The notes under the pieces are model-generated. The model worked only from the letters and a program-made list of their open reading frames with translations, was not told where the DNA came from and searched no databases. A program made the translations under genes and the position numbers. Positions 46,601 through 49,600 of a stretch of 64,000 nucleotides of DNA are shown piece by piece; the first letter of the stretch is position 1; every line of letters begins with the position of its first letter. Source of the stretch: the human T2T-CHM13v2.0 reference genome, Homo sapiens; the NCBI RefSeq assembly GCF_009914755.1, contig NC_060935.1. The stretch is one strand, 5' to 3'.

Positions 46601-49600
46601 CTGCCTTCTGCAAACAGGGCCCTGTTCCCCAGCAGCCCAGACCTGGGGCCTGGACTCTGGTACTGAGCAGACTGGGTTGGGGCTGCAGGCCTGCTCCTCT
46701 CTATACAAAGGCCCATGTCTGTATCTATGCCATGGGTGTACAACAGGCCACTTGCTCCTACCACATGCTCCGTGAAGCAGAGACCAAAACATCTGCTCCA
46801 AGTGTCATGAAAACTATGCCAGGGTAAGCCCTGTCCCCTGGTATGAAAAGGGAGAATCCCTGATGTGTTTTTCACACTGTCCCTAAGGGGTGTCCACAGA
46901 GCCCCACACCTGCCCCATGTAGCCACGAGACTTCACACTGACCCTCCAGTGTTGATGGGGCCCTGTGCCCGCTCTGGGGTATTAACAGAATGTCCATGGC
47001 ATGGAACCCCCATACCTGTCTCCAGGGTGTCCACACCCTACCCATCTGTCCCCAGTGTGTCCATAAGACTTCCCTTCCACCCCCGGAGTGTCCACAGGAA
47101 GCCCCACCTGCCTCTGCCATGTCCACAGGACCCTATGTGACCATGGGACCCCATATCTGTCCCTGGGATGTCTATGTCTCGCCAACCACCCACAGATAGC
47201 CATAAAGCCCCCTGCCCCGCCCCCCCCCCCCCAGTGCCCACAGCTATACTCACTGCTGAGTCCAGTCTTGTTCAGGGCACTGCCCACACCCCAAAGGGCA
47301 GCTGCCACATAGAGGATCCAGCTGTGTTGCAGGACCCGAGGCACAGGGGCCCAGAAAAAGAGGATGAAGGTGAGCAGCAGGTGCACCCCTGCTCCGGCCA
47401 CCAGGGGCACCGGGCGTGGCAGCCACAGGCCCAGCAGGCCCAGGAGTGAGGCGGCTGAGGCGCCCAGGCTGTAAGCCACGAGGAGGTAAGCCAGCCGCTC
47501 CAGCCCCACCGAGCACACGCCATAGCCCTGCGGGGGGACAAGGGGTGAGTGTTGAAGTCTGGAACAGCCCAGACCACAGTCTCAGCCCTCCCCGCATCGC
47601 GGGGGGTGCCTCACCCCCCTGCGATGGGGGTCCTAAGAGCCAGGGGGGAAGAGGGTCTGGCTCTTACTCCCCGCATCGTGGGGGGTGCCTCACCCCCCTG
47701 CGATGGGGGTCCTAAGAGTCGGGGGGGAAAGAGGGGTTGGCTCTTACTCCCCGCATCGCGGGGGGGTGCCTTACCCCCCTGCGATGGGGGTCCTAAGAGC
47801 CAGGGTGGGGAGAGGGGCCCCCCGCGATACGGGGAGTAAGAGCCAGGTGGGGAGAAGGGCTGGCTCTTACTCCCCACAAGAGGTGTTCCTTAGGCCACAC
47901 CCTGCCCTCCCTGGACTGCCTGACCTCGCTCCAAGGCTCAGGGGAAGGTTCTGAGGGCAGGTGTGAAAATGCTTGGAATGTCCCTAGACACCGTGGGCTG
48001 TACCCCACAAGGAACTAAACACTCTGTGGGTGCTATCCCATTTCGATTCAGAGAAGTTAAAATAACTTGCCCAAGGTAAAGGGGGGACGGGGGTAAGAGA
48101 GGGAAGAGAAAGCAGGAGGGGGATATTTGGGATATACATGTACACACTTACATATGTAATTAAAAATTATTCTTTGTTTACTTGAATTCAAATTTACCTG
48201 GCTATCTTGTCTTTTGTCGGGCAATCCTTTGCAGGCTGTACTTACCAAGGCGATACCAGTGCAGGCAAAGAGCACCTCGAAGCCGCTGTAGATAAAGAAA
48301 GGCACGAGGTGGCGCAGGCGGTAGTCACGCACGTGCTTGAAGGGCAGCTGGAAGATGTTGCCCCAGCCCACGCTGCGCAGATCGATCTCCTCCGTGGGCC
48401 GGTAAGCGGCTCCGCACAAACCCAGCACCTGCGAACCCATTACTTGAAGGGGCGGCCAGCCAGGCCCAGGCCTGGCCTCCAGGCTTCAGCCCCGCCCTTC
48501 AGATGCACCACGTGCCTGGGCCTTGCCCCAGCTCGGCCCCGCCTCCCAAACCAGGGCCCCGCCCCTGAGACACTCCCACAGACCCAGGTCTTGCCTTATC
48601 CCAGCTCAAGGCCCCGCCTCTCAGCACAAAGCCACGCCACCACACTCCGAAAGACGGTGGTCTTGCCTCCCAGCCCAAGGCCCCATCCCCTCTCTCTCAC
48701 ATACACACACTTCACAACTCACATTCAGACAAATCCATAGACTTCAACCTTCCTTCTCAGCCCCGCGCCAGACCTCAGCCCCGCCTTCCAGGCTAGTCCC
48801 CGCCCCTCGGACACACCCACAGACTTCGGCCCCGCGTCCCAGCACTAGGCCCCGCCCTGACACAGCCACGGACTGGGCCTTGCCTCCCAGCTCCATCGCC
48901 AGGCTGCAGCCATGCCAACGCCTTAGTTCTGCCGTCCAGTATCACTTCCAGTTTGAGCCACACCTTCCAGCCCTCACCCTTGGTCCTGTCCCCAACCCCC
49001 TCACAGGTCTCAGTCAGTCTTCTAAGATCTTGTCTCCAGCTCGAAACTGTGGACCAAGCCTGTTCCCTCCTTCCCCTGGCCTCTGGATGCCCACGCCTGC
49101 CTCGGACCACAGGCCTCAGCCCCGCCTCCGAGCCTCATGCCCGCTCTGCAGCACTCGGCCCTAGCTCCCCAACTCAGATCGCGCTCCCAGGCCTACGGCC
49201 TGCCCCGAGGCCACAACCCGACCCAGGCCATGCCATCCGATCCAGACCCTTTCTCGCAGACTCGGTCCCCAGAACCACACTCTGCTTCACTGACTGTCCT
49301 GCCCCCATCCCGGGCCGCACCAGCAGCATGGCCAGGAAGGCCACTGCCATGAGCACGCTCTCCACCACAATGAGGTTTCCGCTCCGCGGGAGCGTCCGCA
49401 GAACCGTCTTGTTGAAGCCGCTGAGGATCCCGTGGCTGTTGGTGCCTGGGAAGGGTGGGGGTGAGGGCACCGTGAGCAGAGAGTAGGGCACACAGTCAAT
49501 CCAGCCACCAGGGTGGAGCCACGCAGGCCGCGGAGGAGCGGTGGAGGGCGGGAGAGTGAGAGCAAGGGCAGAGTTCCTTCAGAGAGCAGTTTGGAGGTTT

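What the first reader, a model, noticed from the sequence alone, without database searches (positions are those of the whole stretch)
47588..47875. Intron-8 minisatellite is homologous to the SATR satellite unit and may be its seed
Seen: the GC unit CTCTTACTCCCCGCATCGCGGGGGGTGCCTCACCCCCCTGCGATGGGGGTCCTAAGAGCCAGGGGGGAAGAGG aligns position by position with the satellite unit ATATTACTCCCAATATCGCAGGGGGTGTACACCCCCTGTGATATTGTTCCTAATATCCAGGGGGAGAGG. Hybrid units such as GATATGACTCCCCGCATCGC occur at 35620-35830. Inference: either a single-copy intronic VNTR of an immune gene gave rise to the SATR family that accompanies these duplications, or a satellite piece invaded the intron. The sequence alone does not give the direction.
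Basis: partly seen in the sequence, partly recalled or inferred. Interest (0 to 1): 0.75.

Follow-up and report, generated by a model that had tools for sequence, protein, structure and literature searches.

The report
SATR2 satellite patch at duplication edge
The short GC-rich repeat in UNC93B1 intron 8 is a piece of a known, widely scattered human satellite (SATR2) sitting exactly where a large segmental duplication ends, and it is probably not the seed of that satellite family.

Summary
Window 47588-47875 carries three 79-bp GC-rich units, a half unit and a 12-base stub. These units align in register with the AT-rich satellite of the window (49-52 of about 79 bases, z 10.5-13.8). Hybrid units lie at 35656-35823.

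The premise of a single-copy VNTR is wrong. The same unit gives at least 205 matches in this genome, including arrays that a 2006 paper lists as SATR2. It also occurs in the window at 35804-35961 and 38032-38109.

The patch marks the right edge of the DA/Xiao segmental duplication. Everything to its right is single copy. The 9.5 kb to its left, which holds UNC93B1 exons 9-11, has six paralogs 2.95-4.2% diverged from it. All six share the same junction with the satellite.

After that junction the sequence continues in three different ways, so the patch has been a repeated break or recombination site. The gene's own exons 9-11 show 3 synonymous and 0 non-synonymous private changes, against 16 and 43 in the paralogs. 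This suggests the patch was resident before the copies were made.

SATR1 and SATR2 exist at megabase scale in macaque, so seeding of the whole family is unlikely (about 4%). Outgroup introns were not available, so direction is not proven.

The parts
47588..47875 (+). Intron-8 SATR2 patch: three 79-bp units (the first lacks model positions 1-7), a half unit (right arm plus spacer) and a 12-base start of another unit.
   Evidence: The left junction CAGTCTCAGCC|CTCCCCGC is shared with all six paralogs. The right junction with the intron occurs once in the genome.
47831..47875 (.). Perfect 16-bp inverted repeat (47831-47846 pairs with 47860-47875, 13-base loop) at the very edge of the patch.
   Evidence: 47740-47875 folds at -49.7 kcal/mol, z -6.71, with 0 of 200 shuffles as good. 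The sequence was read.
47876..49300 (-). Single-copy remainder of intron 8 and exon 8. This lies outside the duplication.
   Evidence: the only full match is to itself. The 9 other matches are 55-75 bases long and all fall on query positions 282-360.
38110..47587 (-). Segment U: UNC93B1 exons 9-11, introns 9 and 10, and 4.6 kb downstream of the gene. It is duplicated six times elsewhere.
   Evidence: 95-96% BLAST identity. One search gives 2.95-5.1% substitutions among all seven copies. Exon coordinates come from the hub table.
37998..38109 (+). End of the satellite-HERV-satellite flank: a partial unit (model 47-79) plus one full SATR2 unit that abuts U directly, in the same orientation as the intron patch.
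   Evidence: 38032-38109, score 75.9, model 1-79. One search shows the sequence. The junction occurs 5 times in the genome.
35656..35961 (+). Two hybrid units (SATR1-like outer arms, SATR2-like inner arms) followed by two SATR2-type units. The array then flips into inverted SATR1.
35987..36700 (-). Inverted AT-rich SATR1 array.
   Evidence: period 76, 9.5 copies, 70% matches. One search gives hits on the minus strand.
37105..37878 (+). Forward AT-rich SATR1 array.
34526..35445 (+). Forward AT-rich SATR1 array.
27694..30032 (+). Forward AT-rich SATR1 array on the left side of the satellite-HERV-satellite flank.
19609..19618 (.). Point at which five paralogs join their U-adjacent satellite to the OR7E-bearing core. 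This is the head-to-tail junction of the roughly 28-kb unit.
   Evidence: The junction string occurs 5 times in the genome, all at U-bearing copies.

Best explanation
The intron-8 repeat is a 288-bp resident patch of the known GC-rich satellite SATR2, of the sub-type found in DA/Xiao duplicons. It forms the right-hand edge of the segmental-duplication block at 11q13.2.

Shown: the block includes UNC93B1 exons 9-11 (segment U, 9.5 kb). Sequence right of the patch is single copy. All six U paralogs carry the identical U|satellite junction. After that junction the DNA continues in three different ways: unique intron in the gene, unique chr3 DNA after 2.6 units, and the OR7E core in five copies. 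U is bracketed by SATR2 units in direct orientation.

Inferred: the patch was already beside exon 9 when the first copy of U was made. It acted as the break and recombination site for two reasons. It shares homology with the SATR2 units at the ends of the satellite-HERV-satellite flanks, and each unit is a GC-rich imperfect palindrome that can form a hairpin. The U-adjacent satellite in the paralogs therefore descends from it or recombined with it.

How the patch first reached the intron is not shown. I think it came in as a piece of an already existing satellite family and did not arise there.
For: - Family identity. There are 205 matches, a lower bound, to 47560-47900 in this genome. Three of the matched arrays on chr13 (45.69, 62.96 and 63.06 Mb) have the spacing of the three SATR2 arrays listed in PMC1794570.
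- Similarity by group. The intron units are 82-96% identical on average to 60 units at DA/Xiao loci, 82-88% to 145 units of large arrays, and 62-65% to 10 SATR1 units.
- Edge of the duplication. 47876-49300 is single copy, while 13000-19600 has 13 other full-length copies.
- Paralogs and shared junction.
- Junction counts in the genome. Satellite|core occurs 5 times, all in U-bearing copies. Flank-satellite|U occurs 5 times. Satellite|intron occurs once.
- A second duplication edge lies inside the same terminal satellite at chr9:102.93 Mb.
- Published breakpoints fall in SATR2 of the Xiao core (PMC5088589, passages).
- Resident status. Private changes in the 705-base coding part are 3 synonymous and 0 non-synonymous in the gene, against 16 and 43 in the six paralogs. 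My hypergeometric one-sided P is 0.026.
- Hairpins. Single units fold at -21 to -26 kcal/mol, z -2.2 to -3.4.
Against: - No outgroup intron was seen, so residence before the first copy rests on 3 substitutions and on parsimony.
- A late arrival together with the 280-kb DA is not excluded if the imported copy had only a short neutral phase.
- The name SATR2 rests on matching published coordinates. It was not tested against the Repbase or Dfam consensus.
- The consensus comparison places the intron and Xiao sub-type between SATR1 and the large SATR2 arrays. That is also what a progenitor would look like.
- Hairpin formation in vivo was not tested.
Confidence: 0.7

Rival explanations
1. Seed model: the intronic repeat arose in place and is the ancestor of the SATR1/SATR2 family.
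For: At the four positions that separate the sub-types, the intron and Xiao sub-type shares its state with SATR1, while the large SATR2 arrays are the odd ones out (TTAC against TCAG, A against C at position 16, A against C at position 33). The sub-type is therefore intermediate, as a progenitor would be. Unit 1 equals the sub-type consensus at all compared positions.
Against: - The unit is not single copy.
- SATR1, SATR1v and SATR2 are at megabase scale in macaque, and SATR1 is the most abundant satellite in a gibbon. The family therefore predates the 3-5% divergence of the UNC93B1 copies.
- The same GC-rich, inverted SATR1, AT-rich, forward SATR1 layout is described for macaque cores and occurs in flanks that have no UNC93B1 piece.
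- The AT-rich arrays are far more diverged internally (65-76% matches) than the patch (90%).
- No decayed units flank the patch. The only flanking hit, 47863-47896, has E 5.4.
Confidence: 0.04
2. Late import: intron 8 had no satellite. The patch came in 14-7 Myr ago as the right terminus (U plus satellite) of the roughly 280-kb type II DA. That terminus was joined to the intron by a non-homologous or template-switch event, so today's exons 9-11 are a former duplicon copy.
For: - The chr3 duplicon ends in U plus 2.6 satellite units next to unique DNA, so U plus satellite is a real duplicon terminus.
- The patch ends in a half unit whose right arm has become the exact complement of the left arm, giving a perfect 16-bp inverted repeat at the joint. 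This looks like a fold-back or template-switch scar.
- The U copy 289 kb upstream keeps a unique non-duplicated left flank. The resident segment was therefore duplicated around the DA.
- The gene copy and that upstream copy are the closest pair, at 2.95%.
Against: The gene's exons 9-11 show 3 synonymous and 0 non-synonymous private changes and the fewest private changes of all seven copies. Every paralog shows the neutral pattern, about 73% non-synonymous overall. A pseudogene phase of several Myr should have left non-synonymous changes. The insertion would also have had to land exactly at the U boundary.
Confidence: 0.15
3. Footprint model: a Xiao element with SATR2 at both ends once sat in intron 8. 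Recombination between its two terminal satellite arrays removed it and left a solo patch, in the way that solo LTRs form.
For: The flanks do end in short SATR2 arrays that abut unique DNA. Li et al. report that the 280-kb DA at 11q-67 Mb is reduced to about 10 kb in chimpanzee by a 270-kb internal deletion (passage), so such collapses do happen at this locus.
Against: The satellite|core junction exists only in the five U-bearing copies. A satellite-first left end is therefore not a general feature of the element. No trace of other Xiao sequence remains in the intron.
Confidence: 0.08

Closest known systems
SATR2 and SATR1 satellites (Repbase/RepeatMasker families)
   Same: The unit is a 79-bp GC-rich tandem repeat, 82-88% identical to the large arrays that a paper lists as SATR2. 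It aligns in register with the 75-76-bp AT-rich SATR1-type unit.
   Different: The patch has only about 3.6 units, lies inside a gene intron and has no SATR1 next to it. It belongs to a sub-type (CTCTTAC, GCATCGC, CTCAC) that differs at four positions from the large arrays. No match to the curated consensus could be run.
Xiao/DA core duplicons with satellite-HERV-E-satellite flanks (Li 2009, PMC2700803; Mohajeri 2016, PMC5088589)
   Same: The window holds an OR7E pseudogene, satellite arrays around an internal block, many copies at 87-96% identity, and duplication breakpoints inside the satellite.
   Different: Here the outermost satellite patch lies 9.5 kb beyond the flank, inside an essential gene, and a gene fragment is carried between two satellite patches. 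In the passages I read, the papers give a 19p OR7E region as the origin of the Xiao core and 16p, 21q and 8p as DA donors. They do not mention UNC93B1 (0 occurrences).
Macaque SATR1-SATR1v and SATR1-SATR2 core units (bioRxiv 10.1101/2025.08.04.668424)
   Same: The order is a GC-rich array, then a roughly 0.6-kb inverted SATR1, then an AT-rich stretch, then forward SATR1. SATR2 blocks have a uniform size of about 377 bp. Compare window 35623-35979, 35987-36700, 36927-36992 and 37105-37878.
   Different: The macaque cores are subtelomeric or interstitial arrays with spacers.
Solo LTRs
   Same: A short direct-repeat remnant is left where a larger element ends or once lay.
   Different: The repeat here is a satellite, not an LTR, and no excision event has been shown.

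Membership tests
SATR2 satellite | Tandem GC-rich unit of about 79 bp that matches annotated SATR2 arrays | tested here: met
   One search gives period 79. Searches give 82-88% mean identity to 145 units of large arrays. Three of those arrays correspond by spacing to the SATR2 arrays named in PMC1794570.
SATR2 satellite | Match to the curated Repbase or Dfam SATR2 consensus | not testable with these tools
   No repeat library is on hand. The name is inferred from published coordinates.
SATR2 satellite | Occurs mixed with SATR1 | tested here: inconclusive
   This holds for the window's flank (35656-36700) and for three paralogs. The intron patch itself has no SATR1 beside it.
Xiao/DA segmental duplication | Many copies at about 90% identity or more, with an OR7E core | tested here: met
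   OR7E1P comes from the hub table.
Xiao/DA segmental duplication | Satellite-HERV-E-satellite flank | tested here: inconclusive
   Satellite arrays on both sides of 30032-34526 are shown. The retroviral identity of the internal block was not tested.
Xiao/DA segmental duplication | Copy boundaries fall in the satellite | tested here: met
Single-locus minisatellite (VNTR) | The unit is confined to one locus | tested here: not met
   There are 205 matches, a lower bound, on at least 8 chromosomes.
Progenitor locus of a satellite family | Present in lineages that lack the arrays | not testable with these tools
   No non-human genome is held.
Progenitor locus of a satellite family | Basal or intermediate sequence state | tested here: inconclusive
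   The sub-type is intermediate between SATR1 and the large SATR2 arrays at 4 of 4 diagnostic positions. It shares this state with 60 units at other duplicon loci, and the comparison has no root.
Progenitor locus of a satellite family | Old, decayed units at the array edges | tested here: not met
   Both edges are sharp. The only flanking hit is 47863-47896 with E 5.4.

The most novel reading that the evidence does not exclude
The intron patch is older than the ape duplicons and is present in Old World monkeys. It was the homology anchor through which a satellite-bounded duplicon captured the last three exons of an essential innate-immunity gene. On this reading the patch seeded the UNC93B1-bearing sub-family of DA/Xiao elements, though not SATR as a whole.

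As a by-product, human UNC93B1 now has its ancestral downstream flank stranded 289 kb away. Its 3' exons sit between 9.5-kb direct repeats about 3% diverged, which is a standing substrate for deletion or duplication.
Probability: 0.3. Interest if true: 0.5.

Novelty: new member of a known kind. Interest (0 to 1): 0.3.

Why it matters
The finding turns a supposed origin of a satellite family into something more ordinary: a known satellite marking a segmental-duplication edge. It also gives a base-level anatomy of how that edge cuts through UNC93B1, a gene needed for endosomal Toll-like receptor signalling.

The last three exons lie inside duplicated DNA, with six look-alike copies. This matters for read mapping and variant calling in exons 9-11. 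It also matters for rearrangement risk between the two chr11 copies, which lie 289 kb apart.

The case adds to the published link between SATR2 and duplication breakpoints.

Tried and rejected
- **Papers not held.** Newman and Trask 2003 and Darai-Ramqvist 2008 are not in the library. I did not look up the 2008 paper that first described DA and Xiao. Supplements of Li 2009 and of the macaque preprint were not opened, and they may bear on insertion-site and array claims.
- **UNC93B pseudogene names.** A search for UNC93B2 to UNC93B8 gave 12 papers, none about their structure judging from the listing.
- **Paralog flanks.** As a result, only 10 kb was seen for the chr4 and chr11:71.5 Mb copies. 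A later 2-kb fetch meant to show the left end of U at chr11:71.5 Mb landed inside the flank instead. It shows about 5 kb missing there relative to the window.
- **Mosaic test.** I looked for a switch point along U between the gene copy and the upstream chr11 copy. Twelve windows of 800 columns show none.
- **Phase argument.** The satellite left of U ends at model position 79 and the patch starts at position 8, as if U had been dropped into one array. I give this no weight. Chance agreement within 7 bases is roughly 1 in 5, and every model I considered allows it.
- **Replaced-exons model.** I rejected a model in which the original exons 9-11 were deleted and replaced. The upstream copy keeps a unique flank, and the gene's exons show no neutral phase.
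- **Monomer tree.** I did not build a full tree. With 79 columns and no outgroup it would not give a root, so I used group consensuses instead.

Full report
**What is there**

Intron 8 of UNC93B1 lies between exon 9 (47254-47527) and exon 8 (48246-48428); the gene is on the minus strand. At 47588-47875 the intron holds three 79-bp GC-rich units, a half unit and a 12-base stub. Each unit is an imperfect palindrome followed by a G-rich spacer. It folds as a DNA hairpin at about -22 kcal/mol, z -3.4.

- A profile made from 13 GC-rich units finds the AT-rich monomers of all four arrays of the window in the same register.
- Natural units share 49-52 of about 79 bases, z 10.5-13.8.
- The hybrid units at 35656-35823 are real.

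**The unit is not single copy, and it has a name**

Searching this genome with 47560-47900 gave 205 matches, which is a lower bound. They include long arrays on chromosomes 9, 13, 12, 7 and 3 at 79-86% identity.

Three arrays on chr13 (45.69, 62.96 and 63.06 Mb) have the same spacing as the three arrays that PMC1794570 lists as SATR2 (passage). I therefore call the GC-rich unit SATR2 and the AT-rich unit SATR1. The curated consensus could not be consulted.

The same unit also lies in the window at 35804-35961 and at 38032-38109.

**The patch is the edge of a segmental duplication**

- Right of the patch, 47876-49300 is single copy.
- Left of it, 45000-47587 has six other copies at 95-96% BLAST identity: chr7:6.98, chr11:67.71, chr3:75.67, chr11:71.53, chr4:8.93 and chr4:9.49 Mb.
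- These copies keep introns 9 and 10.
- All six have the identical junction between the unique sequence and the first satellite unit.

After that junction there are three continuations.
- In the gene, 3.6 units are followed by unique intron. This junction occurs once in the genome.
- On chr3, 2.6 units are followed by unique chr3 DNA.
- In the other five copies, 1 to 6 units lead to the OR7E-bearing core at window 19609-19618. In three of them about 2.4 kb of flank-type satellite comes first. This junction string occurs 5 times in the genome, only at these copies.

The duplicated piece that carries exons 9-11, which I call U, spans 38110-47587. On its left it abuts one full SATR2 unit at the end of the satellite-internal block-satellite flank. 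U is therefore bracketed by direct SATR2 units.

This layout fits the DA/Xiao elements of Li et al. 2009 (abstract, background and passages read) and of Mohajeri et al. 2016 (passages). Mohajeri et al. place duplication breakpoints in SATR2. A further flank at chr9:102.93 Mb also ends in 2.6 SATR2 units against unique DNA.

**The ancestral flank**

At chr11:67.70 Mb the U copy has no satellite on its left. It runs into sequence whose last roughly 410 bases occur nowhere else in the genome.

The ancestral order (unique flank, U, intron 8) is therefore now split. The flank sits with one U copy, and the intron sits with the other, 279 kb to the right. The size and place of the interval fit the 'human 11q-67Mb DA (~280 kb)', a type II DA, of Li et al. 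They date type II elements to 14-7 Myr and type I, such as 3p-75, to 25-18 Myr (passage only, table heads not seen).

**Resident or imported?**

I counted the changes private to each of the seven copies in the 705 coding bases of exons 9-11.
- The gene has 3 synonymous and 0 non-synonymous changes.
- The six paralogs have 16 synonymous and 43 non-synonymous changes.
- My hypergeometric one-sided P is 0.026.

The gene's exon 9, which ends 60 bases from the patch, has therefore been under selection over the whole branch. This favours a patch that was already resident when the first copy was made. It argues against import of a former pseudogene copy together with its satellite. The numbers are small.

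A scan for a mosaic switch between the two chr11 copies found none. The U tree is close to a star. Distances are 2.95-5.1%, with the two chr11 neighbours closest. At a recalled rate near 1e-9 per site per year this is roughly 12-25 Myr.

**Seed or invader?**

Against a seed of the whole family:
- A 2025 preprint reports SATR1, SATR1v and SATR2 at 3.44, 4.48 and 0.22 Mbp in macaque (passages).
- SATR1 is the most abundant satellite in a gibbon.
- The macaque core unit has the same order of parts as window 35623-37878.
- The AT-rich arrays are much more diverged internally than the patch (65-76% against 90% matches).
- The patch has sharp edges.

For a seed:
- I compared group consensuses of 212 GC-type units and 10 SATR1 units. 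The sub-type shared by the intron and 60 duplicon units agrees with SATR1 at all four positions where it differs from the large arrays. It is therefore intermediate.
- This comparison has no root, and the intermediate state is not special to the intron.

**A feature of the family**

I counted base pairs between the two arms on an alignment of 102 units.
- The alignment held 3 intron units, 23 SATR1 units and 6 GC or hybrid units of the window. It also held 30 of 61 duplicon units and 40 of 149 others, both picked at random. The 149 included three duplicates of the intron units, none of which was picked.
- The two arms pair in 80.6% of cells, against 75.9% in shuffles (0 of 500 shuffles reach the observed value).
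- Four pairs switch from C-G in SATR2 to A-T or T-A in SATR1.
- These switches are probably one event each, so this is suggestive only.
- The large arrays carry two uncompensated changes.

**How it most likely works**

The patch has no sign of a function for the gene. It behaves as a fragile, recombination-prone spot. Its GC-rich hairpin-forming units are homologous to the satellite that ends every flank of the duplicon family. The joint with the intron carries a perfect 16-bp inverted repeat (47831-47846 with 47860-47875), which looks like the scar of a fold-back or template switch.

Breakage at the patch is shown by the three continuations. The hairpin mechanism is inferred.

**Verdict**

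The single-copy premise is refuted. Seeding of the whole family is unlikely (about 0.04). A resident patch that anchored capture of exons 9-11 is the best reading (0.7 for the composite statement). Direction can only be settled with outgroup introns, which these tools do not hold.

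Noticed in passing
L044:5095-5506 and the start of U in L032 (chr11:67,701,062-67,701,474): The U copy 289 kb upstream of the gene keeps a unique, non-duplicated left flank with no satellite. The ancestral downstream flank of UNC93B1 seems to be stranded there. Exons 9-11 exist as a 9.5-kb direct duplication around a 279-kb duplicon block.
   Followed up: partly
window 42743-47527 and loci L031-L036: The six UNC93B1 look-alikes keep introns 9 and 10 at 95-96% identity, so they are genomic duplicates. 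Hurle et al. 2011 (PMC3038909, passage) call the copies at these duplication boundaries a retroposed pseudogene.
   Followed up: partly
window 43189-47527 (coding parts of exons 9-11): Private changes are 3 synonymous and 0 non-synonymous in the gene, against 16 and 43 in the paralogs. One paralog (chr11:71.53 Mb) has an in-frame stop in exon 11. Indels in exon 11 differ among the copies.
   Followed up: yes
alignment A1 (102 satellite units): Four base pairs of the unit's palindrome differ between SATR1 and SATR2 on both arms at once (C-G against A-T or T-A). The large SATR2 arrays carry two changes that break pairs. This hints that the arms are kept complementary.
   Followed up: partly
window 35623-37878: The order of parts is a GC-rich array, about 0.7 kb of inverted SATR1, an ATTAAT-rich stretch (36927-36992) and forward SATR1. 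This matches the macaque subtelomeric core unit as described in words in a 2025 preprint.
   Followed up: no
loci L018-L030 (chr9:77.05 Mb, chr13:44.6 Mb and others): Best matches inside the large SATR2 arrays are spaced about 157-160 bases apart. This suggests a two-unit higher-order repeat.
   Followed up: no
L051 and L034 (chr11:71.53-71.54 Mb): This paralog lacks about 5 kb relative to the window somewhere between window positions 33869 and 42552. The flank-satellite|U junction was not found there with up to 3 mismatches.
   Followed up: no
window 13000-19600: This stretch has 13 other full-length copies at 92-95% identity (chr8p23, chr4p16, chr3, chr11), plus pieces at chr16:5.24 Mb matching at up to 97%. 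The window's left part therefore belongs to the large DA duplicon.
   Followed up: no
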